61,520 bases of DNA from Patescibacteria group bacterium (GTDB lineage Bacteria; Patescibacteriota; Doudnabacteria; UBA920), in assembly GCA_036266555.1 (NCBI GenBank), contig DATAMW010000030.1, positions 1 through 61,520 on the forward strand, read 5' to 3'. The notes beneath the pieces are model-generated. The model searched no databases and had not been told where the DNA came from. It worked only from the letters and a program-made list of their open reading frames with translations. This document shows positions 16,388-50,495 of the stretch, in pieces. Both the position numbers and the translations under genes were made by a program. The first letter of the stretch is position 1; every line of letters starts with the position of its first letter.

Positions 16388-16397
16388 TTAATATTTT

Positions 16398-17920: not shown

Positions 17921-17943
17921 TTAAAGTTTTAATAAATCAAAAA

Positions 17944-18360
17944 ATGATAAAATCTTTTCAAAAAACTTTCGCACTATTTTTCACAGCCCTCGCGCTTTGC
18001 ACGAGCCTCCTCGCACCAATCACCGCATATGCCGCAACCGACAACAAAGCTTGCACAGATTTAGAAAATCAAATTACTAACAGCGGCTTTAATGTTAAAG
18101 ATCAGTTGCCAGTGTATTGTACAACTGGATCAATTTACACTAAATTTTTAAACGGCGCGCTTTACGCAGTGGGGATTGTGGCTGTAATAGCCATTGTCTA
18201 CGGCGGCTATTTGTATATGACAGCACAATCAAACGCAGAACAGAGCAAACGGGCGCGTAATATTTTAACGTGGGCAGTACTCGGCCTAATTGTAGTAATT
18301 GTTGCAGCCTTGCTGGTAAACGTTGTTATCAACCTGCTTGTTGAAAACCGGTTTGTGTAA
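17944..18360 (+). CDS. TrbC/VirB2-like membrane protein, paralog P4
   Basis: Signal peptide (..ITAYA), a Cys pair (KACTD...VYCTTG), and the module LYAVGIVAVIAIVYGGYLYMTAQSNAEQSKRARNILTWAVLGLIVVIVAALLVNVVINLL. Confidence 0.6.
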   Translation: MIKSFQKTFALFFTALALCTSLLAPITAYAATDNKACTDLENQITNSGFNVKDQLPVYCTTGSIYTKFLNGALYAVGIVAVIAIVYGGYLYMTAQSNAEQSKRARNILTWAVLGLIVVIVAALLVNVVINLLVENRFV

Positions 18361-18469
18361 TTCCCTGGATATAGTAGAATATAAGTACGTTACATTTAGA
18401 TAAGAACCTGTTCGGAATCAGCTCTATGTTAGCCAGCCGATCCTGAACAGCTTCATCCTCATTCGAAAG

Positions 18470-18904
18470 GTGGTGAAAAAATTGAAACAAACTCTAAAAA
18501 AATTTAGTTGGTTAAATATCGCTCAGATGGTGTTCATGCTATTCTTGGTAACAGCTCCTATTACTGTTCCTGCTGTAGCTCACGCTGGCTTAGTTGATAC
18601 TTTTGTAAACAATTGTCCAGCTGATACTGGCGTGCGTTGTTCAGAAGGCAGCATTGCTTCCATCTTCCGTCTTATAATCAACTGGGCATTGGCAATTGCG
18701 TTTATCGCAGCTGTTATCATGTTGATTTACGGTGGTTTCCTTTACATCACGTCTGCAGGAAACACTGATAACGCTACAAAAGGCAAAACAGCTATTGTTA
18801 ACGCCTTAGTCGGTATTGTAATCATCGTACTTTCTTACATTATTGTTCAAATCGTGTACAGATTCGTATCTGGTTCTGGCTCCGGTGGAATTACTGGACC
18901 ATAA
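18470..18904 (+). CDS. TrbC/VirB2-like membrane protein, paralog P5
   Basis: GTG start after an SD-like GAAAGGTGG. Signal peptide, a Cys pair (NNCPADTGVRC), and the module INWALAIAFIAAVIMLIYGGFLYITSAGNTDNATKGKTAIVNALVGIVIIVLSYIIVQIVYRFV. Confidence 0.6.
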   Translation: MVKKLKQTLKKFSWLNIAQMVFMLFLVTAPITVPAVAHAGLVDTFVNNCPADTGVRCSEGSIASIFRLIINWALAIAFIAAVIMLIYGGFLYITSAGNTDNATKGKTAIVNALVGIVIIVLSYIIVQIVYRFVSGSGSGGITGP

Positions 18905-19039
18905 TTGTTTTCCCGCATTTAAGGTTAGCCTGATGTGCGGGATAGCTCTGGGAACAAAACTAAAACTACAAATGCACAAGTTCGTCGCAGTTTTATTTCC
19001 AGAGTTATTTATCAAAAATTGATTAAGACAATTAAAACA

Positions 19040-19447
19040 ATGAAACAAAAAATTATTTTAAGCTTAGCTGGGATGTTCGTTGCTATCATGGCCATGTTCG
19101 CTTTTGCTCCAAGCTTTGCAACTGTTAGCGCACAAGGCACAGGCTCTGGATGTACAACTAACTGTGTGGGCAGTGGTTTAAATGATATTGCACAAGCTTT
19201 CCCTGCAAGAACTACACACACAATTCCTGAATTGGCTAAACTAGTTATCAACTGGGCGTTGTACCTGGCTGCAATTATTGCCGTAATCTTCATCATCATT
19301 GGTGGCTTCATGTACATTACTTCTGCAGGTGACTCTGCTAAAGCAAGCAAAGGCCGCGCAACATTGGTTAATGCTTTAATTGGTTTAACCATGATCGTGC
19401 TGTCGTACTTAATTGTTCAAATCGTTTACAATTTCTTGACTACGTAG
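19040..19447 (+). CDS. TrbC/VirB2-like membrane protein, paralog P6
   Basis: Start set at ATG 19040 (MKQKIILSLAGMFVAIMAMFAFAPSFATVSA signal peptide). A Cys pair (GCTTNC) and the module INWALYLAAIIAVIFIIIGGFMYITSAGDSAKASKGRATLVNALIGLTMIVLSYLIVQIVYNFLTT. Confidence 0.6.
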   Translation: MKQKIILSLAGMFVAIMAMFAFAPSFATVSAQGTGSGCTTNCVGSGLNDIAQAFPARTTHTIPELAKLVINWALYLAAIIAVIFIIIGGFMYITSAGDSAKASKGRATLVNALIGLTMIVLSYLIVQIVYNFLTT

Positions 19448-19460
19448 TTCTATATAATTT

Positions 19461-20306
19461 GTGAGCATGATTTTTAGCAAAACATCTTTTATCTCCAAGT
19501 TTACTCTCGCCATGCTTGCTCTTGTGAGCATGGCGTTCTTTGTTGTGCCTGCAGACAACGCGCAGGCGCAGTCGGGTGGCAGAGGAACTCGAGTAGTATT
19601 CTGTTTTAACACAGTCACGAAAAACGTCACTTATCCTTCTTCTGTAGACAGCTGTCCACCAGATGCTAATATTATTTCTAAATCTTTTCCTAAAACTGAT
19701 AAAGGCTATTGTGTGACCGGCGCTAGTGCTCCTTATGATGCAGAGGAACCTCTACTAACTGCTGCAGGCGAACCTAAAGTAGCGAATGGCCAATGTCTTT
19801 CTGATGACAAACCTGGTGACCCGGCTCATTCTAGTGTGCCGTTCGGCCCATTTGTAGCATTCCCATCATCTGTTCTCCCTGCGCCAACTCCGACACCAAC
19901 CCCAACCCCAACGCCCACACCTACTCCTACTGTTCCTCCTGGTGGAAGTGGTGGTCCAGGCGGTGGCGGTCCAGGCAATTACACTCAAGGGGATTGTGAA
20001 GACAATTTCCACAAAGTTGGCCCATTGTGTGTGCCGAATAATCCTTTCAACAACAACTCCATTGCTGGGGGCGATGCCACAGCCAGCAGTATTGCTGTGA
20101 GAATCATCAAAATTTTGCTTTACTTTGGGGCAATTGTTGCAGTAATCATGGCCATGATTGGCGGTTACTACGTGATGACTGCAGCTGGCAATGCGGCTCA
20201 AGCAGCTAGTGGCCGTAAAACCCTAACTAACGCAGTAATTGGCTTGGCGATTGTAGTTTTGGCTTATGTCATAATTCAAGCAGTTATCAGTTTCCTAACC
20301 ACATAA
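19461..20306 (+). CDS. Large TrbC/VirB2-like paralog P7 with a Cys-rich ectodomain and a (PT)8 linker
   Basis: Signal peptide, a ~130-aa Cys-containing domain, a PTPTPTPTPTPTPTPT linker, a G-rich stretch, a second Cys pair, then the module LLYFGAIVAVIMAMIGGYYVMTAAGNAAQAASGRKTLTNAVIGLAIVVLAYVIIQAVISFLTT. Confidence 0.6.
   Translation: MSMIFSKTSFISKFTLAMLALVSMAFFVVPADNAQAQSGGRGTRVVFCFNTVTKNVTYPSSVDSCPPDANIISKSFPKTDKGYCVTGASAPYDAEEPLLTAAGEPKVANGQCLSDDKPGDPAHSSVPFGPFVAFPSSVLPAPTPTPTPTPTPTPTPTVPPGGSGGPGGGGPGNYTQGDCEDNFHKVGPLCVPNNPFNNNSIAGGDATASSIAVRIIKILLYFGAIVAVIMAMIGGYYVMTAAGNAAQAASGRKTLTNAVIGLAIVVLAYVIIQAVISFLTT
19884..19931 (+). repeat. In-frame (Pro-Thr)x8 dipeptide repeat within P7
   Basis: cca act ccg aca cca acc cca acc cca acg ccc aca cct act cct act, read directly. 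Confidence 0.9.
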
Positions 20307-27259: not shown

Positions 27260-27790
27260 ATGTTAACTATCCGCCTACAACGTGCAGGCAAAAAGAACAA
27301 ACCGGAGTACCGAATTGTTCTTGCAGATAAAACTGCAGCTGCGCAAAAGAAATTTACCGAAGTGCTTGGTTCTTACAACCCGCACACTAAAGCTCTAACT
27401 ATCCGCGATCAAGAACGCTTGAATTACTGGAAAGATGAACAGCATGTTGAACTATCTGCAACTGTTCGCAACCTGTTGATCACTAAAGAAATTATCAAAG
27501 GTGATAAAACTAAAGCTTTCACTATTCCTAAAAAGGAAGTAGTTGCTGAGGAAGCACCAGCAGCTCCAGCGGAAACTTCAACTGAAGCTCCTGCAACCGA
27601 AGAAGCTCCTAGCGAAACACCTGCTGAAGAAGTAGCAGAAGCTGTTGCTCCAGAAGCGCCAGCCGAAGTAGAGACACCTGCTGAACCAGAAGCTCCAGTA
27701 GCTGAAGCAGCTCCTGAAGTTGAGGCTCCAGCTGAAACTCCAACAGAAACACCAGCAGAAGCTCCTGCAACAGAAGAAACTCAAGTCTAA
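27260..27790 (+). CDS. rpsP: 30S ribosomal protein bS16 with a ~90-aa A/E/P/T-rich C-terminal extension
   Basis: MLTIRLQRAGKKNKPEYRIVLADK...GSYNP is the canonical S16 start. From about residue 95 the sequence is EEAPAAPAETSTEAPATEEAP... low complexity. Confidence 0.92.
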   Translation: MLTIRLQRAGKKNKPEYRIVLADKTAAAQKKFTEVLGSYNPHTKALTIRDQERLNYWKDEQHVELSATVRNLLITKEIIKGDKTKAFTIPKKEVVAEEAPAAPAETSTEAPATEEAPSETPAEEVAEAVAPEAPAEVETPAEPEAPVAEAAPEVEAPAETPTETPAEAPATEETQV

Positions 27791-27915: not shown

Positions 27916-28395
27916 ATGAACAATAATAAGATGATCACGCTAGGCGTGTTAGTCCTAGCCCTTATAGTAGCAGCGGTTTTGTATTTTAATATGCAAAATA
28001 ATAAAAAAGATGTTGCTATGAACACAAATGTTCCTGAAAAAACTAAGGAAATTGTGAAAACTGATGTAGAAACTAACAAATCTCCGGAAAAATTCCCAAC
28101 TGACATTCCAATCGAATCTGGCGCTACAATTACCCAAAACTACAATGCGACTGCTCCAGATGGCCGTTTCCAAGCCACTCGCGCATTCACTAGTAAGAAA
28201 ACATTGGGCGAAAACTACGCACTTTACAAAGAATGGATGAATTCTAATGGTTGGACCATTGCTTCATCAGTTGATCAGCCAACCTATAAAATGGTTTCTG
28301 GCACTAAAGGCAAGCAAACTCTCCAAGCCTCAATTAGCGAAAATAGCTCTACTAAAGAAGTTACAGTTACCTTATCTTTGACAATTCTCCCTTAA
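27916..28395 (+). CDS. Small N-terminally membrane-anchored protein, family member S1 (unknown function)
   Basis: One N-terminal TM helix, then a ~110-aa domain with the block PEKFPTDIPIESGATITQNYNATAPDGRFQATRAF shared with the ORFs at 33586 and 34067. Confidence 0.7.
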   Translation: MNNNKMITLGVLVLALIVAAVLYFNMQNNKKDVAMNTNVPEKTKEIVKTDVETNKSPEKFPTDIPIESGATITQNYNATAPDGRFQATRAFTSKKTLGENYALYKEWMNSNGWTIASSVDQPTYKMVSGTKGKQTLQASISENSSTKEVTVTLSLTILP

Positions 28396-28531: not shown

Positions 28532-31500
28532 ATGAGTAAGAAATTCTTAAATGCGCACGCAAGACAGTGGTTCTTGATGATTTTCGGTCTTTTTGCTATG
28601 GTTTTCCCTCTAAAATCTAATTTTAGGAAAATTACCCATATTGCCGTTCTAATAGCAATATTAGTTGGAACAATTAGTGCTGGAACATTAATCAATCCAA
28701 ATGTAGCCCACGCTAGTTGTGATCCGGCCACTCAGCAGCAAGATTATCAGGCTCCAACGGTTTCAATTTCTCAGCCAACTGGTTCTTACACAGATCCAGG
28801 AAGTATGAGCATTGCGATTTCCGGTCAATTGGCTTATTACTGTGAAGGCTTTGTTGGTGGTGGCGCTGGTTACCAAAATACAGCTACCTCGGTAAACTAC
28901 CAAATTACTAATGACTCAAACGGGAGCATGCTATTTTCTAATACATGGAACTCTCCCTCATGTCCAAACCCATTAGCTTGTTTGCCTGGGCCTTATAATA
29001 TTTCTGATACTGCTAATGCTTCTTTGTGGGGCACAGCAAGTTATACAATTACAGCTAGTGTGTATGATAATACCCAGCATTCAGCAGGTAACCCAAACCC
29101 TATTGCTACAAGCTTTAATCATTTTACAGTTACCCGCACCGCAGCAGTAGGTTATGAAATTCAAGGTAGTCTTGCGATCCAGTCTGTTACTCCTGATCCT
29201 TCGGATACATCGATAAATGTATCTGGAACAGGAACTGGTGGCTATTGGTCTCGAGGAGGCCCTCGTTGTTTCTTTGGATCTAATCGCTCTGAAGCGTTCA
29301 TTCGCATGCAACTGGTTACAACTACGCCTGCCAATGGACCTTATCCGCCAGGATCTGACAGTATTACAAATAATTCTTATCACAATCCACCGCCATCAAG
29401 TTACTCAACAATTTATAAGATAGATGGATCAACTGCTGGCACTTATCCATTAGTTCTGACTTATTCAGGCAGTGATGTTCCTGGAGATCCTAATTGTAAT
29501 ACTACTCCAGATCCGATGGGTTATTCTTTCAATTTTTCTATCAATACTACTGGATTAACTAATGGTCAGCACACAGTGACTGTTACTGCTTGGGATGAGT
29601 CCAAGAAAATGGTAGTTTCTTCTACTTACACATTCACAGTGTCTCATCCAGTTGTCCTTACTCCAGACTGGTCTGTATCTTGTACTCCAGCTTCTGTAAC
29701 CCTGACCCAAGGGAACTCTGGTAGCTATTCTTTATCTACATCACCGATTAATGGATTTAAATCTGCTGTAACTTTTAGCGGCCCATCTTACAGCCCGAAT
29801 CCAGGAGTTGCTCCAAGTGTATCTTTTTCAAACAACTCTCAAGCTCCTTCAGCAACGACTACAGCTATTATAAATACAACAGCATCTACATCACCAGGCA
29901 CATATACCTTAACATTCACTGGCACAGATGGCTTAAATACACACACCTGTTCTGTGCAGTTGATAGTGCAGGCGCTCCCGTCTCCGACAGTAGTGTTATC
30001 TTTTAGCTCTTCGAGCACTGTTACTACTCAAACGATTGCCTCTGGAGCAAGTACAACTATATATTGGACTCCAACCAATACTACTGCCGGTACAAACTGT
30101 ACAGCCAGTAATGCTTGGAGCGGAGCACAAGGCAGTAACTCTGGACAGCAATATAGTTATGCTACCCCATCAATGTCTTCTTTTGGCAGCCCGTATACAT
30201 TTAGCATACAGTGTACTGGGCCAGGTGGAACCACCTCTCTGACCAGTATTGTATTAACAGTTTCAGCTAGTCCAGATTTCTCACTTTCGTGTACTCCATC
30301 GTCTCTTACTCTTACTCAAGGGAACTCCGGTAGCTACTCCTTAACAACTACGCCGTTAAACGGTTACACTGCTAAGGTTACTTTTTCAGGGCCTTCGTAT
30401 AGCCCAACTCCAGGTGTGGCGCCGTCAATTAGTTTTTCAAACAACACCCAAATTCCTAGTGCTACTACTACAGCACTTGTTACTACTACTACATCCACTT
30501 CTCCAGGCACATACAACCTAACTTTCACAGGCACAGGTAGCGGAGCAACTCATAATTGTTCTGTGCAATTAATAGTTACTGCAGTGGCTACTCCAGCAGT
30601 AGAGCTTTCTTTTAGCCCTCATCCAAGTGTGATAACAACCCAAACAATTTCTGCTGGATCAAGCGCTACTTTGTATTGGTATCCAACCAACACTACTGCA
30701 GGTACAAACTGTACTGCCAGCAATGCTTGGGGTGGAGCTTTGGGTAGTAATCCAGGCCAGCAATACAGTCAATCAACTGGCGCCATGCCAGCGGGTACTT
30801 ATACTTATACGATTCAATGTACTGGGCCAGGGGGAAGCACCTCTCCAGCTAGCGTTACATTAACGGTTTCTTCTGCCCCTGTTCCAGACTGGTCTATATC
30901 TTGTACTCCAGCTTCTATCACAATCACTCAAGGCAACTCCGGTAGTTACTCTCTTTCTACATCACCAATTAATGGATTTGCTTCTGCTGTAACCTTTAGC
31001 GGTCCTTCGTACAGCCCATCTCCTGGCGTTGCGCCAAGCATATCTTTTTCAAACAACGGCCAAGTGCCAAGTGCCACTACTACAGCAATTGTTACTACAA
31101 CTGGCTCTACTTCTGCAGGTACATATACTTTAACTTTCACAGGTACAGGTGGCTCAATTACGCACACTTGTTCTGTGCAGTTGATAGTGCAAGCTGTATC
31201 AGTCACTGCTTCTGTAGACATTAAGTGTAACGGTACTGATGGACCATGTCCTGTGGCATCCGGAGGCAGCGCCACTTTGTCATGGACTTCTAGTAATTGT
31301 ACTGGTATTTCTATTGACCAAGGCATTGGCGGCGTGGCTGCCACTGGAACCACTCCAACCGGCAGTACATTCTCGACTAAAACTTTTATTATTACTTGTA
31401 CAGCTGTCTCTGGTGATGTTACTGACTCAGTGACCATAACAGTAAATCCTGCAGACTGGTCTTTGTCTTGTACTCCAGCCTCTATCACTGTTCCTCAAGG

Positions 31501-33529
31501 TAATTCAGGCAGTTATTCTTTATCTACATCACCAATCAATGGATTCTCTTCTGGAGTGACATTCAGCGGTCCTTCGTACAGCCCAACTCCAGGGAATGCC
31601 CCAGGCATTAGTTTCTTTAGCAATGGCCAAGTGCCAAGCGCGACTACTACTGCCTTCGTTACTACTTCTGCGCTCACCACTGCAGGAACATATACCTTAA
31701 CTTTCACAGGTACAGGCGGCGGCATTACCCATACTTGTTCTGTCCAATTGATAGTGCAGACAGTAGCGGTGACTTCAGGCATTGATTTAAAATGTAATGG
31801 CACAGATGGACCGTGTACGGTTATTTCTGGTGGCAGTGCAACTTTGTCTTGGGTGCCAACTAATTGTTCTGGTACTCTTGATATGGAACCAGGCGGTATG
31901 ACTCTTGCAAACTCCCCAGGCTCAATGTCTACGGGCCCACTATTTAGTAGTCGCAATTATTTCCTTTCCTGTTTTGATGGCTCAGGCGGATCTTATTCTG
32001 ATTCTGTTACAGTCAACGTTGGTGTTGATTGGTCTTTGTCATGTAGCCCGAGTGCGGGTACTGTATCGCCTGGTGGTTCAACCAGCTTCTCTTTGTCGAC
32101 TAGCCCAGTAGGTGCATTCGGTGGCGCCATTACTTTCAGTGGGCCAACTTACAGCCCAACTCCAGGGGTGGCCCCATCTGTAAGTTTCACAAATAATAAT
32201 CAACTGACACCAGCTACGACGACAGCCATAATTTCAACAACTGGCTCTACTTCCACAGGTGTATATAATATAACGTTCACTGGAGTCATGACTGGCAGTG
32301 GCGGCATGTTCCCACACAGCTGTACTGTGCAGTTGACGATTGGTTCGGCTCCGCCACCTTCAGACTGGACGTTATCATGTACCCCACCTTCGGCAAGTAT
32401 TATGGCAGGAAATTCTACAAGTTTTTCATTATCTACTACTCCAGTTAGCGGCTTTAACAAGGCTGTCACTTTTAGTGCTCCAACCTATTTCCCAACTCCT
32501 AGCACGCCACCATCAGTTTCTTTTTCAGGCAATAGTCAGGTGCCGTCTGCTGTAACAACTGCGATTATTACCACTACATCGAGTACGTCCACTGGAACCT
32601 ATACGCTTCAGTTTAATGGCGTTGGCAATGGGATTACGCATATTTGTAGTGTCTCGTTGACTATTAGTGGTGGGCAACCGGCTACTCCAATAAACGTGAC
32701 TACTTCCAATTTCCCTTGTGGCACAGTGACTGTGAGTTGGGCGCCAGGGACACCGTCGACTCCAGCCCCAAGTGGGTACAGAGTTTTCCGAGGCACTAGC
32801 TCGAATCCATCTTTTGGAACTTGGACACTAATTTCTAAGCCAACGAAAACAGATCCTGATCCGTTGCCTCCAACCCAAACCAGCTGGCAAGATACCAGCC
32901 CTGGTTACAGCAGTAATTATTACAAGGTTTTGGCTTACAATGGGCTCACTGCGTCTAATGACCCAGGTACTGCCACTTTGGGTAATGCTGCGGCTTGTGC
33001 AGGAGCTTTGACTAGCTCAGATATAGACCTTACTCAGGTGTCTGGAAAAATTAATAAAACCTTTAGTGCAATTTCTTGTAATGGTACTTCTGATGTGGCT
33101 ACGTTGCCTAACAACGCCTTATTCACAGTAGGCGATAGAGTAACATTCAAACTTAATGTTTGTAATTCTGGCTCAGCTGGTTTAACAAGTGTGTCAGTAT
33201 CTAATCCTCTCACCAATATCACCAGTCCAACCGTGGCCACGGCCTCACCTTCTGGTTGTGTAACCGGGCAATCATATAATGTGCTCTCAAATACCTTTAC
33301 CTTTAATTTAGCTGACCTACCATCTGGTGGCGGCTCTACGCAGGTTTGTAGTATTACTTATACAGCAACAGTGACGGCGCCAGCTTCTGCGCCTGGCAGT
33401 GTTTATCGATTCTTGAGCGCAGCCACTATTTATAGTACAGAACTTGGAAGCTATCCAATTACTACGCCACCGTATTTGTTTGGAAATACTTCCACTGTTC
33501 CAGATCGTACTGAAACAGCGCCGCAATAA
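28532..33529 (+). CDS. Giant secreted surface protein G1 (1665 aa): conserved head, six A-type and four B-type Cys-paired Ig-like modules, FN3, DUF11-like tail
   Basis: Signal peptide ending VAHA|SC. ~330-aa head shared with G2. Repeated ~100-aa modules beginning DWS(V/I/L)SCTP...GNSGSYSLSTSPINGF...THTCSVQLIVQA alternate with ~95-aa modules. C-terminal FN3-like (GYRVFRG...YYKVLAYN) and DUF11-like domain. Ends VPDRTETAPQ. The true start may be the internal ATG at 28598. Confidence 0.8.
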   Translation: MSKKFLNAHARQWFLMIFGLFAMVFPLKSNFRKITHIAVLIAILVGTISAGTLINPNVAHASCDPATQQQDYQAPTVSISQPTGSYTDPGSMSIAISGQLAYYCEGFVGGGAGYQNTATSVNYQITNDSNGSMLFSNTWNSPSCPNPLACLPGPYNISDTANASLWGTASYTITASVYDNTQHSAGNPNPIATSFNHFTVTRTAAVGYEIQGSLAIQSVTPDPSDTSINVSGTGTGGYWSRGGPRCFFGSNRSEAFIRMQLVTTTPANGPYPPGSDSITNNSYHNPPPSSYSTIYKIDGSTAGTYPLVLTYSGSDVPGDPNCNTTPDPMGYSFNFSINTTGLTNGQHTVTVTAWDESKKMVVSSTYTFTVSHPVVLTPDWSVSCTPASVTLTQGNSGSYSLSTSPINGFKSAVTFSGPSYSPNPGVAPSVSFSNNSQAPSATTTAIINTTASTSPGTYTLTFTGTDGLNTHTCSVQLIVQALPSPTVVLSFSSSSTVTTQTIASGASTTIYWTPTNTTAGTNCTASNAWSGAQGSNSGQQYSYATPSMSSFGSPYTFSIQCTGPGGTTSLTSIVLTVSASPDFSLSCTPSSLTLTQGNSGSYSLTTTPLNGYTAKVTFSGPSYSPTPGVAPSISFSNNTQIPSATTTALVTTTTSTSPGTYNLTFTGTGSGATHNCSVQLIVTAVATPAVELSFSPHPSVITTQTISAGSSATLYWYPTNTTAGTNCTASNAWGGALGSNPGQQYSQSTGAMPAGTYTYTIQCTGPGGSTSPASVTLTVSSAPVPDWSISCTPASITITQGNSGSYSLSTSPINGFASAVTFSGPSYSPSPGVAPSISFSNNGQVPSATTTAIVTTTGSTSAGTYTLTFTGTGGSITHTCSVQLIVQAVSVTASVDIKCNGTDGPCPVASGGSATLSWTSSNCTGISIDQGIGGVAATGTTPTGSTFSTKTFIITCTAVSGDVTDSVTITVNPADWSLSCTPASITVPQGNSGSYSLSTSPINGFSSGVTFSGPSYSPTPGNAPGISFFSNGQVPSATTTAFVTTSALTTAGTYTLTFTGTGGGITHTCSVQLIVQTVAVTSGIDLKCNGTDGPCTVISGGSATLSWVPTNCSGTLDMEPGGMTLANSPGSMSTGPLFSSRNYFLSCFDGSGGSYSDSVTVNVGVDWSLSCSPSAGTVSPGGSTSFSLSTSPVGAFGGAITFSGPTYSPTPGVAPSVSFTNNNQLTPATTTAIISTTGSTSTGVYNITFTGVMTGSGGMFPHSCTVQLTIGSAPPPSDWTLSCTPPSASIMAGNSTSFSLSTTPVSGFNKAVTFSAPTYFPTPSTPPSVSFSGNSQVPSAVTTAIITTTSSTSTGTYTLQFNGVGNGITHICSVSLTISGGQPATPINVTTSNFPCGTVTVSWAPGTPSTPAPSGYRVFRGTSSNPSFGTWTLISKPTKTDPDPLPPTQTSWQDTSPGYSSNYYKVLAYNGLTASNDPGTATLGNAAACAGALTSSDIDLTQVSGKINKTFSAISCNGTSDVATLPNNALFTVGDRVTFKLNVCNSGSAGLTSVSVSNPLTNITSPTVATASPSGCVTGQSYNVLSNTFTFNLADLPSGGGSTQVCSITYTATVTAPASAPGSVYRFLSAATIYSTELGSYPITTPPYLFGNTSTVPDRTETAPQ
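29663..32680 (+). repeat. In-frame tandem module repeats inside G1
   Basis: A-module starts read at 29663, 30272, 30884, 31451, 32024 and 32360, giving spacings of 609, 612, 567, 573 and 336 nt. The copies are clearly related but diverged at the nucleotide level. Confidence 0.85.
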
Positions 33530-33531
33530 TG

Positions 33532-33554
33532 TGATATGCTTAATATAAGCATAT
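33532..33554 (+). terminator. Hairpin after G1 (weak terminator)
   Basis: GATATGCTT-aatat-AAGCATATC (9-bp AT-rich stem) followed by TTTAAAT. Confidence 0.4.
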
Positions 33555-33585
33555 CTTTAAATAGAGTAGAAATTAAAATAAACAT

Positions 33586-34062
33586 ATGGAGCAAGTTAAA
33601 ATAAAACAATTGTTAACAGTCATTGGGGCATTTATTGTTGCTGGTTTAGTAGTGGCTGTGGGAACAGTGATCTATAAAAAATATGTAGCACCAACACCAG
33701 TGGCTATTAAATTGCCAGTGCAGCAAAAAGATTTGCCAGTGAATCAAGTGCCAGAAAAATTCCCTACAGACGTGCCAATAGAGACTGGCGCAACCATTAC
33801 TCAAAATTACAATGCCACAGCTGATGATGGTCGTTTTCAGGCCACTCGTGCTTTTGAAACCAACAAATCTTTGGCAGAGAACCTGACCCTTTACACAAAC
33901 TATTTGAAAGCTGGCGGTTGGACTCTTAACCCTGTAATTGATCAAGATATGTTTAAATTAATATCAGGCAGTAAGGGTAATCAGCAAATCCAATTTGCTA
34001 TGACTGAAAACAATGTGTCGCATAAAAAAACTGTGACTATTTCCTTAACTGAAATTAAATAA
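33586..34062 (+). CDS. Small N-terminally membrane-anchored protein, family member S2
   Basis: A TM helix, then VPEKFPTDVPIETGATITQNYNATADDGRFQATRAF. A close paralog of S1. Confidence 0.7.
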   Translation: MEQVKIKQLLTVIGAFIVAGLVVAVGTVIYKKYVAPTPVAIKLPVQQKDLPVNQVPEKFPTDVPIETGATITQNYNATADDGRFQATRAFETNKSLAENLTLYTNYLKAGGWTLNPVIDQDMFKLISGSKGNQQIQFAMTENNVSHKKTVTISLTEIK

Positions 34063-34066
34063 TATT

Positions 34067-34555
34067 ATGATGAACAAGAAATTACTTATTGCTGTTGGGG
34101 TTTTGGTAATCGCAGCTGCGGCTCTAGCAGCAATTTACTTTTTTCATATTAAAAAAAATCAACCAAAACCTTTTGCAGTTGAAACAAAAACTTTAGACGC
34201 TGCTGTTTTGCCAAGTGGTTTTCCAAAAAACATGCCAATCGAAGCTGGCTCAACAGTGTTGCAAAACTACGAGGCCACTACCACAGATGGCAGAAAACAG
34301 TCTACCCGAGTTGCTACTACGAACAAAACTTTAACCGCAGCACTGAAAGACTATTCAGATTATTTTGTGCACTTAGGATGGACATTAATTCCTAATACAG
34401 ATGCTGCAACCAATACTACTAGCGCCCTATTAAGATATCAAGATAGAATATTAGTCATTAGCGGCAGTACAAATGATGCTACAAAACAAAACAGTGTTTC
34501 TTTAACTTTGACTGAATCATTTGTACAAGCCCCAGCTAGTAATATTAAGAAGTAG
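34067..34555 (+). CDS. Small N-terminally membrane-anchored protein, family member S3 (more divergent)
   Basis: A TM helix, then GFPKNMPIEAGSTVLQNYEATTTDGRKQSTRVA...HLGWTL. Same layout as S1 and S2. Confidence 0.65.
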   Translation: MMNKKLLIAVGVLVIAAAALAAIYFFHIKKNQPKPFAVETKTLDAAVLPSGFPKNMPIEAGSTVLQNYEATTTDGRKQSTRVATTNKTLTAALKDYSDYFVHLGWTLIPNTDAATNTTSALLRYQDRILVISGSTNDATKQNSVSLTLTESFVQAPASNIKK

Positions 34556-34564
34556 TAAAAGCAT

Positions 34565-37500
34565 ATGCTAAAACAAAACTTTAAATTCATAACCACTAGA
34601 CTAGTCAGCTTGTTAATGACAGTCGCTATCTCTGCAGGAGCAATTACTGCTGGGACTTTTGTTGCGCCAAATATTGCGCATGCTAGCTGTAATCCAGCAA
34701 CTCAAGAGCAAGATTATCAATCTCCAACTGTATCTGTGTCTCAGCCAACTGGCACCTATACAGATCCTGGTACTATTAACATTGCGATTTCTGGCCAACT
34801 CACTTACTACTGTGAAGGGGATGTTCCTCCTGGCGGCGGCGGATTTGGTTATCAGAATACAGCCACTGCAGTAAATTACCGCATTACCCGTGACTCTGAT
34901 GGCACCGCGCTGTTTAATCAAACATGGCATTCCCCAAGTTGTGATGACCCTTTGGCTTGTCTTCCTGGACCATATAATATTTCCGATGGAGCCAATGCTT
35001 CGGCATGGGAATCAGGTGCTTACACCATCAGAGCTGATGTATATGATAATACCCTTCATTCCACTGGAGCGATCGTTAATACCAGCACTAATCACTTTAC
35101 AGTGCAACAAACTCCAGGCGCTCCCGGGTATGAAATTCGAGGTAGCCTAGGTATTAATAGTGTTAATCCAAATCCAGCAGACACATCTGTGACTGTAACT
35201 GGAACCGGTGTTGGCGGCTATTGGTCTCGCGGTGGACCACGTTGTTATCAAGGGTCTAACCGTTCCGAAGCGTTCATTCGCATGCAGTTAGTGACCACTA
35301 CTCCAGCTAATGGGCCATACCCTCCTGGATCCAGTGCCATTATTAACGCTGCTTACCACAATACTCCAGTTCCAAATTATCCGACTACTTATAAAGTAGA
35401 TGGAGTGAATGCTGGCGTTTATCCGTTAGCACTTAACGAGGCTGGCAGTGATGTTCCTGGAGACCCAGCTTGTGACACAGTGCCAGACCCAATGACCTAC
35501 ACATTTAGTTTCCCAATTAATACTGCGGGACTAAGCGGTGGCAATCATACAGTGACTGTGTATGCTTGGGATGAATCCACACAAACAGAAATTTCTTCTA
35601 CAACTACTTTTGCAGTGCAGCACAATGCATTAATTTGTGATGCAACTCATACTGTTCAAAGCGGTACCCCTGCTCAATATTCTGTGGGTATGACTGGTAA
35701 TCCATCTGGCACTATCAGTGTGACTATGTCGAGCAACCCAAGCGGCCCACAAATGACTAATAGCCCATTGAGTTTAAATGCTGGCAATAGTTTTACTGGA
35801 GTTGCTAATGTTTCTACTGCTGGCTTAGCAGCAGGAACCTATAATTTAACTTTCACAGGCATGCCTGGGTCTTTCACCTGTGCTGCCACTTTAATTGTTA
35901 CTGCAGTGCCATCGGCGCCACAAGTAGATATTAAATTTAATGGCAGTGATGCTCCTCCGCCACTAAGCTCTGGCACAACCAGTGGCACCATTAGTTGGGG
36001 GAACCAAAATGTAGTTGGTTGTACTGCTTCTTCTAGTTCTAATCCAGCTGGGCGCGACGCAGTGCTTAGCCCAGTGTGGAATGGTTCATATAACGTCAGC
36101 CCAGCAGGAAATGGTTCGCAATCTGTATCTGGATTACAAGATAACACCACTTACACTTTTGTATTAAACTGTACAGGTGTGGCAGGTAGCAATCCATCTT
36201 CGGACTCTGATAACGTAGTGGTCAGTATTGGATCGTCTGCTCCAGTGCTTAACCCTTCTGCTGACATTAAATGTAATGGCAGTGATGGACCATGTACTAT
36301 CCCAAGCGGGACTAGTGCAATTTTAACTTGGACATCCACCAATACAGCAGGCAATTGTACTATTACCAATATTCCTGGTGCGCAACCGTTAAATAATCCA
36401 AGCCCTGGAATTACTACAGGCAACTTAACTAACCCACCAGGCAGTTACGATTATACTATCACTTGTCCTGGAGTAATGGCTGGTAGCTCGCCACCTAACG
36501 GCACTGACAATGTGCACATCAACGTGACTGCGGCACCACCAGTTCAACCATTTGCAGATATAAAATGTTCTGACAGTCCAAGCTCGGGCCCTAGCGATGG
36601 TCCATGTTATGTAACGCGCGGATCTGTTGGCTATCTAACTTGGGCATCATCAAATACTACTAGCTGTACTTTGTCGGAAAATGGGCAGAATCCAGGTTTT
36701 GCATCTTTGAATCGCCCAGCACCGTATCACACTGATTCAATTGATGTTGATACTACATTTACTTTAGCTTGTACTGGTCCTGGAGGTTCGACTTCGGATT
36801 CAGTTACCTTCATTGCAGTGGATGGCAATCCGCCGCCAAGCGTTGATTTAAAATGTATTGGCGACAACGGGCAAACTTCGGATGGTCCATGTGCGGTGCA
36901 AAGTGGCAATGTTGGTCATTTAACTTGGACTTCTAGTCATGCAGATAACTGTACTATGAGTAGAGATGGCGGCGGCCAATCATCTGTGGCAACCAATCAA
37001 GGTGCTCCGGGTATGGCTACGCCAACGTTAACTGCTAATACCAGTTATACAATTACCTGTTCTGGACCAACAAGTCCAGTAGCAACCGATTCAGTAACAT
37101 TTACTATCACTCAAACACCTCCTCCTCCTCCTGGCGGCGGCGATGATTTTACTTTGGCTTGTACTCCAGCAGCAGTGACTATCCATCCTGGTGACTCAAC
37201 TGCATTCCAGATTAACACTACCAAAGTTGGTAACTTTAACGACTATGTAGTTATCTCTGTACAAACATTTATTCCTACGCCTAGTCATCAAGCGCAAATT
37301 AGTTTTAGCGGCAACAATCAAATGCCTTCTGCTACTACGACTGCGTTAGTTACTACTGATGGCACCACTTCTCTTGGTTCCTACACTGTTGTGTTCCAAG
37401 GTGATGGCGGCGGGATTAATAAAACTTGTAACGTAGTTTTGAATATTGTTGATAGTTCTCCTCCGCCCCCACCACCACCTCCACCACCTCCTGCAGCGCC

Positions 37501-38305
37501 GCGCGCGCCGTCAGTGTCTGCTGATGTATCGCAGTGTGGTAAGGTAACTGTGAATTGGAGTCCAAATCCTCCTCCAACACCATCAAGTTATAATGTGTAT
37601 CGTGGTAATAACTCGAATCCATTCTCTGGTTCTTGGCAATTAATTGCGAGCGTACCAGAACCAGGCCGTTCCTTTACTGATAACGCCCCGGCCACTAGTA
37701 ACAACTATTATAGAGTTGAAGCTGTCACCTCTGGAGGCTCAGCGTCTTCTGGAGCTGTCTTAGGCAACATGTCTCCATGTGTACCGAACATTAATGCTTC
37801 GGACAAAGATTTAACTAGTGTTTCTGGTTTAATTACTAAAAACTTTGCGTTACATCCTTGTAACGGTACTTCTGATGTAGCTAGTTTGCCAGTGAATACC
37901 GTGTTTGCCATGAATGATAAAGTGACTTTCCGCATCAATGTTTGTAACGATGGCCCTGGTGCTTTAACCGGAGTTACTGTTGCGGACACATTAAAGAATC
38001 TTACTAATCCAACTTTTAGTAACCTGTCTCCTTGTGTCACTGGTCATAGTTATAATCCGGGACAAAACACTATCAAATTTGCTTTGAATAATGTTGCTCC
38101 TGGTAATGTAGTGCGCCAAGTGTGTACTATTGAATTTACTGCGACAGTTACAGCACCAGCAGTAACAACCGCTGCGCTGTATCGATTCCAAAACATTGCT
38201 GATATTTCTTCTAAAGAATTACCAGTGAAGCGCGTGATGACTCCGCCATATTTGTTTAGCGTTACAGGCGGTGTTCCAGATAGAACTGAAACCGCGCCAC
38301 AGTAA
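34565..38305 (+). CDS. Giant secreted surface protein G2 (1246 aa), paralog of G1
   Basis: Signal peptide ending IAHA|SC. The head is collinear with G1 (for example ASCNPATQEQDYQSPTVSVSQPTGTYTDPG, RSEAFIRMQLVTTTPANGPYPPGS). Four B-type modules (DIKCNGSDGPC...), one or two A-type modules, a P11 tract, FN3-like and DUF11-like tail. Ends VPDRTETAPQ. Confidence 0.8.
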   Translation: MLKQNFKFITTRLVSLLMTVAISAGAITAGTFVAPNIAHASCNPATQEQDYQSPTVSVSQPTGTYTDPGTINIAISGQLTYYCEGDVPPGGGGFGYQNTATAVNYRITRDSDGTALFNQTWHSPSCDDPLACLPGPYNISDGANASAWESGAYTIRADVYDNTLHSTGAIVNTSTNHFTVQQTPGAPGYEIRGSLGINSVNPNPADTSVTVTGTGVGGYWSRGGPRCYQGSNRSEAFIRMQLVTTTPANGPYPPGSSAIINAAYHNTPVPNYPTTYKVDGVNAGVYPLALNEAGSDVPGDPACDTVPDPMTYTFSFPINTAGLSGGNHTVTVYAWDESTQTEISSTTTFAVQHNALICDATHTVQSGTPAQYSVGMTGNPSGTISVTMSSNPSGPQMTNSPLSLNAGNSFTGVANVSTAGLAAGTYNLTFTGMPGSFTCAATLIVTAVPSAPQVDIKFNGSDAPPPLSSGTTSGTISWGNQNVVGCTASSSSNPAGRDAVLSPVWNGSYNVSPAGNGSQSVSGLQDNTTYTFVLNCTGVAGSNPSSDSDNVVVSIGSSAPVLNPSADIKCNGSDGPCTIPSGTSAILTWTSTNTAGNCTITNIPGAQPLNNPSPGITTGNLTNPPGSYDYTITCPGVMAGSSPPNGTDNVHINVTAAPPVQPFADIKCSDSPSSGPSDGPCYVTRGSVGYLTWASSNTTSCTLSENGQNPGFASLNRPAPYHTDSIDVDTTFTLACTGPGGSTSDSVTFIAVDGNPPPSVDLKCIGDNGQTSDGPCAVQSGNVGHLTWTSSHADNCTMSRDGGGQSSVATNQGAPGMATPTLTANTSYTITCSGPTSPVATDSVTFTITQTPPPPPGGGDDFTLACTPAAVTIHPGDSTAFQINTTKVGNFNDYVVISVQTFIPTPSHQAQISFSGNNQMPSATTTALVTTDGTTSLGSYTVVFQGDGGGINKTCNVVLNIVDSSPPPPPPPPPPPAAPRAPSVSADVSQCGKVTVNWSPNPPPTPSSYNVYRGNNSNPFSGSWQLIASVPEPGRSFTDNAPATSNNYYRVEAVTSGGSASSGAVLGNMSPCVPNINASDKDLTSVSGLITKNFALHPCNGTSDVASLPVNTVFAMNDKVTFRINVCNDGPGALTGVTVADTLKNLTNPTFSNLSPCVTGHSYNPGQNTIKFALNNVAPGNVVRQVCTIEFTATVTAPAVTTAALYRFQNIADISSKELPVKRVMTPPYLFSVTGGVPDRTETAPQ
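37460..37492 (+). repeat. In-frame poly-proline (P11) tract in G2
   Basis: cct ccg ccc cca cca cca cct cca cca cct cct, read directly. Confidence 0.9.
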
Positions 38306-38410: not shown

Positions 38411-38791
38411 ATGGAGAATGATCAAGAATTTGTTGAATACATCATCAAGGCGTTAGTTGATAACCCGGCAGATGTTCGCACAGATCGTACCGTTGATGAA
38501 ATGGGTGTTCTAATTACCTTACACATCAATCCTGCAGACATGGGCCAAGTAATTGGTCGTATGGGCCAAACTGCTAAAGCCGTTCGCACCCTTCTACGCG
38601 TTGTTGGTGCTAAGCATAAAGCTCGTGTTAACTTGAAGATTGATGAACCAGAAGGTTCTCATCGTGGACCGCGCCGTGATTACGGTGACCGTCCTCGTAC
38701 TGATGCCCCTGCATCTGACTCAATGTCCAGCGATGACTCTCAAGCGCAAGCCGAAAGCGCCGCTCCAGACATGGATGACTTCAAACTTTAG
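38411..38791 (+). CDS. KH-domain RNA-binding protein (YlqC/UPF0109-like) with a basic/acidic C-terminal extension
   Basis: VEYIIKALVDNPADVRTDRTVDEMGVLITLHINPADMGQVIGRMGQTAKAVRTLL matches the UPF0109 KH fold motif (GxxIGRxG). It holds the usual position between rpsP and trmD. Confidence 0.8.
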   Translation: MENDQEFVEYIIKALVDNPADVRTDRTVDEMGVLITLHINPADMGQVIGRMGQTAKAVRTLLRVVGAKHKARVNLKIDEPEGSHRGPRRDYGDRPRTDAPASDSMSSDDSQAQAESAAPDMDDFKL

Positions 38792-40980: not shown

Positions 40981-41439
40981 CTATTTTAGGATCTTTGGCC
41001 TCTGCCAAAATTCGGTTCCGGATCCTAATTCTGTGATCAGGCCGTTTTTGTCCTTGCGAGCATAAACCTTCCAAGTATCCTTCCATCGAGTGCTTGCCCA
41101 GGCTTCGATTCCGCAGAGAGATTCTTGGCGAGGGGTGGAAACGGTTATTTGGTCGAATTGCTTTGTCCCTTTTTCATTGGCCGAGACGTAAAAAGTAACG
41201 TCGACTAAATCGAGGGTGAATTTTTTGGGAGTGTCTTTCTGCTCAATGCCTAGCCAGTCGTACAATCCAATACTTCTGGTTTTGACGTTAATGACTTCTC
41301 CTACAAACACGACATCTGCAGCGTCAAATTGTTGCTTTGTCGTTAGCTCTGGTTCTGCAAGCGTGCAGGCGTGTGCAATGTTTGCATAGAACATTGTCGC
41401 GAAAAACATCGCAACTATCATGATAATTGATCGTTTCAT
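40981..41439 (-). CDS. Hypothetical secreted protein
   Basis: Start set at ATG 41439 (GGAGG SD 7 nt upstream; signal peptide MKRSIIMIVAMFFATMFYANIAHA). No recognisable domain. Confidence 0.55.
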   Translation of the reverse strand: MKRSIIMIVAMFFATMFYANIAHACTLAEPELTTKQQFDAADVVFVGEVINVKTRSIGLYDWLGIEQKDTPKKFTLDLVDVTFYVSANEKGTKQFDQITVSTPRQESLCGIEAWASTRWKDTWKVYARKDKNGLITELGSGTEFWQRPKILK

Positions 41440-41496
41440 TTTTTTCCTCCGTTGATCTTCGTTGGTGCCAAAGACGATATACCTAGAGAGTAGCAT

Positions 41497-50231: not shown

Positions 50232-50495
50232 ATGTCAGAGCAGCAAAAACTTCTGCTTTCACAGCCTCAGAATCTAATTTCTATGGCGAAAGTAGCGAAG
50301 TTAACCCCATATTCTGCTGAATATTTATCGTTACTATCTCGCAAGGGGCGTATTCCAGCAATCAAGATCAACCGCGACTGGCTAACTAGCCGTCAGGCGG
50401 TTTTGTCATATGTGGCTGAGCAAAAGAAAAAGCATGAATCATTGCTCAAGCGGTTTGATAGCTCTGCTGCCTTAGAAAATGGAGGGACACGATAA
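50232..50495 (+). CDS. Small helix-turn-helix protein (excisionase/MerR-like HTH_17-type)
   Basis: LISMAKVAKLTPYSAEYLSLLSRKGRIPAIKINRDWLTSRQAVLSYV resembles the excisionase-family DNA-binding HTH. Its stop overlaps the next start (TAATG). Confidence 0.6.
   Translation: MSEQQKLLLSQPQNLISMAKVAKLTPYSAEYLSLLSRKGRIPAIKINRDWLTSRQAVLSYVAEQKKKHESLLKRFDSSAALENGGTR

What the first reader, a model, noticed from the sequence alone, without database searches (positions are those of the whole stretch)
28532..38305. Two giant paralogs share head and tail but carry reshuffled Cys-paired module arrays
G1 (1665 aa) and G2 (1246 aa) have the same signal-peptide end ((V/I)AHA|SC). They are collinear over a ~330-aa head, roughly two-thirds or more identical by eye, including RSEAFIRMQLVTTTPANGPYPPGS verbatim. 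They share the same C-terminal FN3-like plus DUF11-like region. The middle differs in number and order of two module types. A modules (~100 aa) run DWSxSCTP...THTCSVQLIV. B modules (~95 aa) are either the NCTAS...IQCTGPGG type or the DIKCNGSDGPC type. G1 has 6 A and 4 B modules; G2 has 1-2 A and 4 B. Each module carries paired cysteines, suggesting disulfide-stabilised Ig-like beads on a stalk. I do not recognise the head domain as any named family.
Basis: partly seen in the sequence, partly recalled or inferred. Interest (0 to 1): 0.75.

Follow-up and report, generated by a model that had tools for sequence, protein, structure and literature searches.

The report
Modular surface proteins with membrane partners
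Two large secreted proteins of an uncultured Saccharibacteria (TM7) bacterium are built like adhesin fibres: a binding-type head, a stalk of cysteine-paired Ig-like beads and a conserved tail. They sit with small membrane proteins in a fast-changing gene island, which makes them candidates for how these parasitic bacteria hold on to hosts, though nothing has been tested experimentally.

Summary
G1 (1665 aa) and G2 (1246 aa) are real paralogs. Their heads are 68% identical and their FN3-like plus DUF11/CLIPPER tails 48%. HMM segmentation gives 6 A + 4 B modules in G1 and 2 A + 4 B in G2. Every module holds 2 or 4 cysteines.

AlphaFold models (pLDDT 79 and 86) show strings of beta-sandwiches. 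Fold searches return only generic Ig/FN3 chains. Head, A and B modules match no Pfam, NCBIfam or PDB family. Only the C-terminal CLIPPER domain is a named family.

Three things go beyond the finding:
- Family members end in a near-invariant, disordered P-x-R-x-E tail, with no LPXTG and no membrane segment.
- In all 13 loci examined, the large genes lie next to small (~160 aa) single-pass membrane proteins (PF27226).
- In every locus with both flanks visible, these cassettes fill the slot between rpsP and khpA-trmD-rplS. The slot is hypervariable between close genomes and empty in cultured Southlakia.

Best reading: fibrillar-adhesin-like surface proteins held by their C-terminus, possibly through the small partners. 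This is a new variant of a known kind and of moderate interest. Function and anchoring are inferred.

The parts
27916..28395 (+). small1: 159-aa single-pass (N-terminal TM) protein, PF27226 'AF_1845' type. It has its own promoter-like site (27829-27857) and terminator-like site (28410-28435).
   Evidence: (P0037 is identical and carries PF27226)
28532..33529 (+). G1, 1665 aa. Layout: signal peptide (1-61, real start perhaps Met23), head-N (62-205), head-C (206-378), A-B-A-B-A-B-A-B-A-A, FN3-like (1384-1487), CLIPPER-like (1488-1650), tail GNTSTVPDRTETAPQ.
28715..29665 (+). G1 head: two beta-sandwich subdomains with 4 + 2 Cys. The conserved Pro-rich loop TTTPANGPYPPGS falls largely in a low-confidence stretch of the model (pLDDT 48-56, below 50 for its last residues).
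29666..32668 (+). G1 stalk: A1 29666-29971, B1 29987-30265, A2 30275-30580, B2 30596-30871, A3 30887-31192, B3 31205-31447, A4 31454-31759, B4 31772-32023, A5 32027-32344, A6 32363-32668.
32681..33526 (+). G1 FN3-like + CLIPPER-like domain + tail. This copy lacks the putative isopeptide pair (Ile and Ser in place of Lys and Asn).
33586..34062 (+). small2: 158-aa single-pass protein, small1-type paralog (43-44% identical to small1).
34067..34555 (+). small3: 162-aa single-pass protein of the divergent type. Its stop lies 9 nt before the G2 start. This type immediately precedes a large tail-bearing gene in 14 pairs across 11 loci (L012 carries two pairs, L011 three).
34565..38305 (+). G2, 1246 aa. 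Layout: signal peptide (1-40), head (41-352), A' (353-446), four B modules (451-849), A (861-962), poly-Pro linker (963-985), FN3-like (986-1070), CLIPPER (1071-1231; Lys1081 and Asn1210 are the putative isopeptide pair), tail SVTGGVPDRTETAPQ.
38258..38302 (+). G2 C-terminal tail with the P-x-R-x-E motif. The motif is near-invariant in the family. The last 15 residues span model blocks with mean pLDDT 56 and 43, and the final six are below 50, so the tail is a flexible linear motif.
27260..27790 (+). rpsP (S16): upstream boundary of the island.
38411..38791 (+). KH-domain gene (khpA-like): downstream boundary of the island, followed by trmD, rluD-like and rplS.

Best explanation
G1 and G2 are Sec-exported, fibrillar-adhesin-like surface proteins of an environmental Saccharibacteria (TM7) bacterium.

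Each protein has three regions. The N-terminus carries a two-subdomain beta-sandwich head, which is the likely ligand-binding tip. The middle is a stalk of Ig-like A and B modules, each stapled by one or two disulfides. G1 has 10 stalk modules and G2 has 6, so the same head is presented at two different reaches. The C-terminus is a conserved base: an FN3-like domain, one CLIPPER (DUF11) domain, and a flexible tail carrying P-x-R-x-E.

The base most likely attaches the protein to the cell. The best candidates for the attachment point are the co-encoded small single-pass membrane proteins (small1/2/3, PF27226), which could bind the tail.

The cassettes of small genes plus a large gene occupy a hypervariable slot inside the rpsP-khpA-trmD-rplS gene cluster. 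Heads are swapped between lineages there while the base is kept. That pattern is what one expects of host- or surface-recognition proteins.

Shown here: gene reality, architecture, fold class, family membership of the CLIPPER domain, tail conservation, gene pairing, island variability.

Inferred: extracellular location, disulfides, isopeptide bond, adhesion as the function, which end is anchored, and the tail-partner interaction.
For: Genes are real and constrained.
- An orthologous 1131-aa pair (L005 vs L006) has dN/dS 0.13: head 0.08, stalk 0.23, base 0.07.
- An independent, identical JGI assembly exists.

Export.
- Both proteins have N-terminal hydrophobic signal sequences ending in A-x-A.

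Fold.
- The models have pLDDT 79 and 86 and are all beta-sandwich.
- Foldseek returns Ig/FN3 chains, including the adhesins PrgB, Cna and AspA.

Base.
- PF01345/CLIPPER scores 28.0 bits in G2, above the 24.6 cut-off.
- CLIPPER is a CnaA-like isopeptide domain of fibrillar adhesins (PMC12617251).
- Of 24 family members, 20 have both Lys and Asn at the two candidate sites. Three of the four members lacking Lys also lack Asn, and G1 is one of them.

Tail.
- P-x-R-x-E, or the variant P-x-[IF]-x-E, lies 1-6 residues from the C-terminus in 23 of 25 members, down to roughly 25-30% domain identity. The other two are L011_1102, which has Ile in place of Pro, and P0021, whose motif is followed by 15 further residues.
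- The last 15 residues fall in model blocks with mean pLDDT 56 and 43.

Partners.
- Small single-TM genes lie next to the large genes in all 13 loci examined: the window and L001, L002, L004-L008, L010-L014. The gap between them is often 2-12 nt, or they overlap.
- Small proteins are only 28-53% identical between genomes whose SMC is 83-91% identical, so they diversify together with the large proteins.

Head.
- The head is the most constrained part between the paralogs. Codon identity at identical residues is the same in head and base (0.48 vs 0.47).

Island.
- The slot between S16 and KH is empty in Southlakia epibionticum ML1.
- No relatives were found in viral contigs.
Against: - There is no expression, localisation or binding evidence of any kind.
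- No recognised anchor is present: no LPXTG, SLH, LysM, C-terminal TM or other NCBIfam sorting signal.
- The head matches no known adhesive or lectin domain.
- The topology of the small proteins is ambiguous by the positive-inside rule: mean K/R count is 2.3 on each flank. They could be foldases or regulators rather than anchors.
- small1 is a separate transcription unit by consensus signals, and G1 has no small3-type gene directly upstream.
- Disulfide and isopeptide geometry could not be measured.
- The family is tiny in public data: 4 + 4 + 21 hits in three searches of 5.8 billion proteins, 6 loci in the genome scan and 1 in the JGI metagenome scan. Generality is therefore unknown.
Confidence: 0.55

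Rival explanations
1. The proteins are S-layer or surface-sheath subunits. G1/G2 would tile the cell surface as a lattice, the small membrane proteins would be their anchors or assembly factors, and the variability would reflect phage or host pressure on an exposed coat rather than ligand binding.
For: - Foldseek hits include the B. anthracis Sap and EA1 S-layer assembly domains.
- The genes sit inside a ribosomal-protein gene cluster, where strong expression is plausible.
- Hypervariability between close genomes is typical of S-layer genes.
Against: - There are two to four different large paralogs per island, with very different lengths and heads.
- The head is under strong purifying selection.
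- No SLH or other S-layer anchoring domain is present.
- A long, linker-separated bead array (poly-Pro linker in G2) suits a fibre better than a lattice.
Confidence: 0.15
2. The small proteins are dedicated membrane-tethered foldases or export chaperones for the Cys-rich giants, in the manner of lipase-specific foldases encoded next to their lipase. Anchoring or release would then be decided by something else.
For: - Tight one-to-one gene coupling: small3-type stop codons lie 2-12 nt from, or overlap, the large gene start.
- A weak NCBIfam hit of small3 to a lipase secretion chaperone (E = 0.012) and a weak Pfam hit of small1 to SpoIIIAH (E = 0.0011). Both are far below the curated cut-offs and probably driven by the TM segment.
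Against: - The small proteins have no Cys and no thioredoxin-like motif.
- This model does not explain why an unstructured C-terminal motif is the most conserved feature of the clients.
- Some small genes stand without a following large gene: L005 8563-9051 and L010 10001-10486.
Confidence: 0.2
3. The P-x-R-x-E tail is a cleavage or ligation signal for an unidentified transpeptidase, a sortase-like logic without a membrane segment, that links the proteins covalently to peptidoglycan or to each other.
For: - Arg and Glu are conserved in nearly all members, in a disordered tail at a fixed distance from the C-terminus.
- Related extreme C-terminal motifs occur on other head-N proteins with different architectures: KKKPxFxEN and TTRIEILP[QR].
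Against: - No sortase, transglutaminase or similar enzyme appears in the window genes scanned or in the islands.
- Known sorting signals need a hydrophobic segment to hold the substrate at the membrane, and none is present.
Confidence: 0.12
4. The proteins have the reverse orientation. The invariant Cys after the signal peptide (A-S-C) would be a lipobox Cys, so the head is lipid-anchored at the membrane and the conserved base and tail form the distal tip.
For: - Cys is invariant at the second residue after the A-x-A site in all head-N proteins.
- The window encodes signal peptidase II (11566..12039).
Against: - The -3 position is H, Q, S, F or L rather than a conserved Leu, whereas the A-x-A rule for signal peptidase I is met in every member shown.
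- Head-N has four Cys. The fragment P0020 keeps the 1st and 2nd but lacks the 3rd and 4th, which fits pairing of 1-2 and 3-4.
- Family members with other heads have no lipobox-like Cys.
Confidence: 0.07

Closest known systems
Fibrillar adhesins of monoderm bacteria (Cna/MSCRAMM, SasG, PrgB, the cross-linked giant adhesin of Mobiluncus mulieris)
   Same: - Sec signal.
- Terminal non-repeat head.
- Long stalk of tandem Ig-like domains with internal covalent staples.
- Paralogs that differ in repeat number.
- Foldseek hits to PrgB, Cna and AspA.
   Different: - No LPXTG/sortase signal or any other known anchor.
- The stalk staples are apparently disulfides, not isopeptide or ester bonds.
- Stalk modules and head belong to no Pfam family.
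- The head has no recognised adhesive domain.
CLIPPER (PF01345, formerly DUF11) domain proteins, e.g. Acinetobacter silvestris B9T28_05395, PDB 9IFR (PMC12617251)
   Same: - G2 passes the Pfam gathering score.
- It has the N-x-G motif and candidate Lys/Asn positions that co-vary across the family.
- Disulfides alongside isopeptide bonds are common in CLIPPER domains, according to the paper.
   Different: - A single copy at the C-terminal base rather than a tandem stalk.
- About 30 extra residues between the first strand and the core.
- G1 has lost both candidate isopeptide residues.
- The domain is followed by a unique P-x-R-x-E tail.
- A profile search of PDB sequences did not reach 9IFR.
Cohesin-dockerin style anchoring (a scaffoldin's C-terminal module binds a separately encoded, cell-anchored partner)
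   Same: Analogy only: a conserved C-terminal element on large modular secreted proteins, plus small cell-bound proteins encoded alongside.
   Different: No sequence or fold relationship was shown. The proposed interaction is untested. The element here is a roughly 10-residue linear motif rather than a domain.
Gram-positive S-layer proteins Sap/EA1
   Same: Chains of Ig-like domains and strain variability.
   Different: No SLH domain. Several paralogs per locus, with distinct heads.

Membership tests
CLIPPER / DUF11 (PF01345) | Sequence match above Pfam's gathering score | tested here: met
   G2 scores 28.0 bits against a 24.6 cut-off, residues 1111-1216. G1 reaches only CLIPPER_2/DUF7507 at 16.8 bits against a cut-off of 27, but its domain is 52% identical to that of G2.
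CLIPPER / DUF11 (PF01345) | Intramolecular Lys-Asn isopeptide bond with a catalytic Asp (not universal in the family, per PMC12617251) | tested here: inconclusive
   Lys1081 and Asn1210 of G2 co-vary across 24 members: 20 have both, and 3 of the 4 without Lys also lack Asn. G1 has Ile and Ser. Geometry could not be checked because no coordinates are available, and there was no alignment to 9IFR.
Fibrillar adhesin (functional class) | Secreted protein with a stalk of tandem Ig-like repeats | tested here: met
   Signal peptides. 10 and 6 stalk modules. Beta-sandwich models.
Fibrillar adhesin (functional class) | Recognised adhesive or ligand-binding domain at the tip | tested here: not met
   The head has no Pfam, NCBIfam or PDB sequence match. 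Fold hits are generic Ig only. Binding itself cannot be tested here.
Fibrillar adhesin (functional class) | Known cell-surface anchor (LPXTG, T5SS/T1SS elements, OmpA, SLH, etc.) | tested here: not met
   No such domain or motif in Pfam or NCBIfam scans at E <= 1. The C-terminus is hydrophilic and ends ...VPDRTETAPQ.
Sortase substrates | LPXTG-type motif followed by a hydrophobic segment and a basic tail | tested here: not met
   The sequences end 4-5 residues after the conserved Glu, with no hydrophobic segment.
Bacterial lipoproteins | Lipobox [LVI][ASTVI][GAS]C at the end of the signal peptide | tested here: inconclusive
   A-S-C is invariant in head-N proteins but the -3 residue varies (H/Q/S/F/L). 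A-x-A|S-C fits signal peptidase I equally well or better. LspA is present in the window.
   No fn3 hit even at E <= 10; the best was Kre9_KNH at E = 0.004, below its cut-off. At fold level the region is a beta-sandwich, and the model matches contactin and titin FnIII chains.
PF27226 'AF_1845' (small partner proteins) | Precomputed Pfam hit | tested here: met
   P0037 (identical to small1) and 10 other relatives carry PF27226. The small3-type members mostly do not, or only weakly. The family is absent from the local Pfam copy, and no literature was found.
NCBIfam NF058595 'invert_tail' (A modules) | Score above the curated cut-off | tested here: not met
   27.6 bits against a cut-off of 37. Only the last 33 profile positions match, at the end of A modules.

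The most novel reading that the evidence does not exclude
The disordered C-terminal P-x-R-x-E tail, together with the paired single-pass PF27226 proteins, is a previously undescribed, sortase-independent system. It would display (or fold and display) large surface proteins in Saccharibacteria and related Patescibacteria. The rpsP-khpA island would be a swap-in site for head cassettes that set host or substrate range.
Probability: 0.3. Interest if true: 0.75.

Novelty: new variant of a known kind. Interest (0 to 1): 0.48.

Why it matters
How ultrasmall episymbiotic Patescibacteria recognise and hold on to their hosts is largely open. Type IV pili are the main known factor (PMC10633639, PMC11623550).

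This locus offers concrete candidates. It encodes lineage-specific, strongly constrained heads on adjustable stalks. It also carries a conserved base, tail and partner module that could be a new way of attaching proteins to a cell envelope without an LPXTG signal.

The tail motif and the small partner genes give simple handles for finding such proteins in other CPR genomes and for testing anchoring in vitro.

The limits are clear. There is no cultured carrier, the family is rare in current databases, and the island is absent from the genetically tractable oral strain.

Tried and rejected
- **Word-indexed protein searches.** Full G2 and a profile of the C-terminal domain returned only 4 hits each and missed known members. 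These searches are not a measure of family size.
- **PDB sequence searches.** The head, the base profile and the small-protein profile gave nothing meaningful.
- **Pfam on isolated modules at E <= 10.** Only faint Ig-type signals appeared: Ig_2, PKD-like, He_PIG, Big_7.
- **Foldseek against PDB and viral libraries.** Only generic multi-Ig hits with TM-scores of 0.34 or less (mostly 0.3 or below), so no specific template for the head.
- **Phage origin.** Rejected: no relatives in IMG/VR.
- **Recent gene conversion as the cause of the identical 25-aa stretch.** Rejected: 16 of 25 codons differ.
- **Tandem Repeats Finder.** No array found.
- **First genome scan with the 9-sequence alignment.** Failed because no stretch was conserved enough. 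A 5-sequence alignment worked.
- **Positive-inside analysis of the small proteins.** Uninformative.
- **Literature.** Searches for 'lipo-invert' and 'AF_1845' found nothing. The Southlakia Tn-seq data cannot speak to this family because the slot is empty there.

Full report
**Observation**

They are clear paralogs (BLASTP E = 5e-156).

The heads are 68% identical over about 316 aa. The C-terminal FN3-like + DUF11-like + tail regions are 48% identical. The 25-residue string NRSEAFIRMQLVTTTPANGPYPPGS is identical in both proteins, but 16 of its 25 codons differ. Among identical residues, codon identity is the same in head and tail (0.48 vs 0.47). The head is therefore not younger than the tail; it is more tightly constrained.

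HMMs built from the G1 modules recover 6 A and 4 B modules in G1. In G2 they recover 2 A (one divergent 'A-prime' directly after the head) and 4 B. G1's middle is best described as tandem A-B didomain duplication. A1-A4 are 72-85% identical in protein and 69-81% in DNA, and B1/B2 are 66% identical. B3/B4 are of the DIKC type.

Every module has 2 or 4 cysteines, and the totals are 36 and 30.

Two caveats apply. G1 probably starts at Met23, by alignment with G2. A JGI contig identical to the window begins at 32054, inside G1, so the repeat count in G1 rests on one assembly.

**What the parts are**

Pfam recognises only the C-terminal domain. PF01345 (DUF11) scores 28 bits in G2, above the cut-off, and DUF7507 scores weakly in G1. 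PF01345 has been renamed CLIPPER. It is a CnaA-like fold with a Lys-Asn isopeptide bond, is typical of fibrillar adhesin stalks, and was solved as PDB 9IFR (PMC12617251).

Isolated head-N, head-C, A, B and FN3-like segments give nothing significant in Pfam or in PDB sequence searches. NCBIfam gives only a sub-threshold 'invert_tail' match at the ends of A modules.

AlphaFold2 on family alignments gave two models:
- Head-A-B of G1: mean pLDDT 79. Head subdomains and the A module are mostly 85-95, and the B module is about 60.
- A-FN3-CLIPPER-tail of G2: mean pLDDT 86.

Both models are all-beta sandwiches. Foldseek against the PDB and the viral library returns only chains of Ig/FN3 domains: integrin legs, PrgB, contactin, titin, Cna, AspA, Sap/EA1 and phage Ig-decorated proteins. 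TM-scores are low because the relative orientation of domains differs.

The 'beads on a stalk' picture is therefore supported. The disulfides are inferred from the even and conserved Cys pattern; I could not measure distances.

**The head**

An exhaustive search of 1.84 billion representative proteins found only 28 relatives. It showed that the head is two separable units:
- Head-N (query residues 1-145) occurs alone in about a dozen 450-780-aa proteins.
- Head-C (residues 142-315) occurs alone in others (P0009, P0010, P0021). Its last strands carry the Big_7-like G-x-H-T-x-T-V-x-A-x-D motif, which also hits many tandem-Ig proteins.

Head-C contains a conserved Pro-rich loop (TTTPANGPYPPGS). 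Most of it lies in a low-confidence part of the model: blocks with mean pLDDT 48-56, and residues 209-217 below 50.

**Organism and family**

The window is a complete 61.5-kb contig of a 'Patescibacteria group bacterium' MAG. A scan of species-representative genomes found the closest relatives in Candidatus Saccharibacteria MAGs, whose SMC is 83-91% identical to the window's.

Family members share the FN3-like + CLIPPER base. Their extreme C-terminus is near-invariant: P-x-R-x-E, or the variant P-x-[IF]-x-E in the most distant members. The motif sits 1-6 residues from the end in 23 of 25 proteins, with no hydrophobic segment after it. In the other two, Ile replaces the Pro (L011_1102) or 15 further residues follow the motif (P0021). 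The G2 model places the tail in its two lowest-confidence C-terminal blocks (mean pLDDT 56 and 43), and the final six residues are below 50. That is how a short linear recognition motif behaves.

Within the CLIPPER domain, Lys (S-D-K-D) and Asn (Y-R-F-Q-N) co-vary. Twenty members have both. Three of the four without Lys also lack Asn, and G1 is one of them. This fits an isopeptide bond in G2 that G1 has lost, but the geometry is untested.

**Context**

Three small paralogous genes flank the giants: 27916..28395, 33586..34062 and 34067..34555. Each encodes about 160 aa with one N-terminal membrane segment and a conserved domain of about 100 aa without Cys. Relatives carry the recent Pfam family PF27226 'AF_1845', for which I found no literature.

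In every related locus I could read, one or two such small genes sit next to each large tail-bearing gene. The loci are L001, L002, L004-L008 and L010-L014. A recurring cassette is [small1-type][small3-type][large]. The small3-type stop codon lies 2-12 nt from the large gene's start or overlaps it.

Wherever both flanks are visible, the cassettes fill the slot between rpsP (S16) and the KH gene-trmD-rluD-rplS. Between genomes whose SMC is about 90% identical, the slot differs in three ways:
- The number of cassettes.
- The head type.
- Whether the first large gene is instead a 465-545-aa HExxH protein.

Small proteins are only 28-53% identical between such genomes. In the cultured oral Saccharibacterium Southlakia epibionticum ML1, S16 and KH are adjacent and there is no island. 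A scan of viral contigs found no relatives, and a scan of JGI metagenomes found one more fragment.

An orthologous pair (L005 vs L006) has dN/dS 0.13: head 0.08, stalk 0.23, base 0.07. These are functional genes whose diversity comes from cassette replacement rather than from positive selection on point mutations at that scale.

Consensus promoter- and terminator-like sites suggest three transcription units: small1; G1; and small2-small3-G2. These are pattern matches only.

**Mechanism**

The most economical reading is a fibrillar-adhesin-like surface protein. Sec export and signal peptidase I cleavage at A-x-A|S-C come first. The modules then fold oxidatively. The conserved base and tail hold the protein at the cell, and the variable but strongly constrained head is presented at the far end.

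G1 and G2 would present nearly the same head on a 10-module and a 6-module stalk.

The base is conserved and the heads are swapped between lineages, so the base is the end more likely to contact conserved cell machinery. The small single-pass proteins are the only conserved co-encoded candidates for that contact. Their rapid co-diversification fits surface exposure. I put this anchor model at roughly one in three.

The same gene pairing could equally reflect dedicated foldases. The tail could be a signal for an unknown ligase. The proteins could be coat subunits. A lipoprotein reading of A-S-C is possible, since LspA is encoded at 11566..12039. It fits the data less well than signal peptidase I, and other heads in the family have no such Cys.

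**Comparison and novelty**

The proteins work like Gram-positive fibrillar adhesins, and they contain a genuine CLIPPER domain. They fail two class-defining tests: a recognised adhesive tip and a recognised anchor.

The stalk and head modules are unclassified Ig-like families, stapled by cysteines rather than by isopeptide or ester bonds. The tail motif, the partner genes and the rpsP-khpA island appear undescribed in the literature I could search.

I rate the finding a new variant of a known kind with moderate interest. Large Ig-repeat surface proteins in CPR bacteria are not surprising. The tail-partner module is a testable lead on how these episymbionts display host-contact proteins.

Noticed in passing
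window 15887..20306: Seven consecutive + strand genes (123-407 aa) each carry a C-terminal T4SS_pilin domain (PF18895). This is a tandem array of type IV secretion pilin-like paralogs. One of them (16697..17920) also has a purple-acid-phosphatase N-terminal-like domain.
   Followed up: partly
window 50495..55105 and 55118..58822: Two further giant genes unrelated to G1/G2. The first is a 1536-aa Gly/Ser/Thr-rich protein with a Peptidase_S74 intramolecular-chaperone domain, as found in phage tail-fibre and endosialidase-type fibres. The second is a 1234-aa protein with Big_7, two CHB_HEX_C_1 and Fn3_assoc domains.
   Followed up: partly
L004 3881..5407; L005 3111..4508; L006 3117..4514; L010 5023..6660: In sister Saccharibacteria genomes, the first large gene of the same rpsP-khpA island is a secreted 465-545-aa protein with an HExxH zinc-protease motif instead of a G1-like protein. 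It lacks the P-x-R-x-E tail.
   Followed up: no
P0005, P0007, P0013-P0019; P0006, P0018: Other proteins that share head-N end in different but equally conserved extreme C-terminal motifs...KKKPxFxEN, or ...TTRIEILP[QR]. L008 and L013 CLIPPER-base proteins end in ...SPSFEEN or ...NPTIIER. This suggests a wider set of P-x-hydrophobic/Arg-x-E C-terminal tags in Patescibacteria.
   Followed up: partly
window 27260..27790: Ribosomal protein S16 is 176 aa. It has a C-terminal extension of about 90 aa, low in complexity and rich in Pro, Ala, Glu and Thr. The extension is also present, but poorly conserved (62-65% identity overall), in related genomes.
   Followed up: no
window 32054 (L003 start): A JGI metagenome contig (Ga0400313_0000153) is 100% identical to the window over 11.5 kb but begins inside G1, near module A5. 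This suggests that assemblers break in the G1 repeat region.
   Followed up: yes
window 29282..29356 and 35258..35332: The 25-aa stretch identical in G1 and G2 lies mostly in a low-confidence (pLDDT 48-56) Pro-rich loop of head-C, and it differs at 16 of 25 codons. The sequence is therefore under unusually strong protein-level constraint. It could be a binding loop or a modification site.
   Followed up: partly
window 40981..41496 (- strand): A 171-aa predicted secreted protein whose signal peptide ends ...YANIAHA|C, closely resembling the ...NIAHA|SC ends of G1 and G2. It has no Pfam hit.
   Followed up: no
window 11566..12039: A signal peptidase II (LspA, PF01252) gene is present, so lipoprotein processing is available in this organism.
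   Followed up: partly
window 61090..61520: The contig ends in the first ~430 nt of a bacterial 16S rRNA gene (Rfam RF00177), which could be used to place the organism.
   Followed up: no
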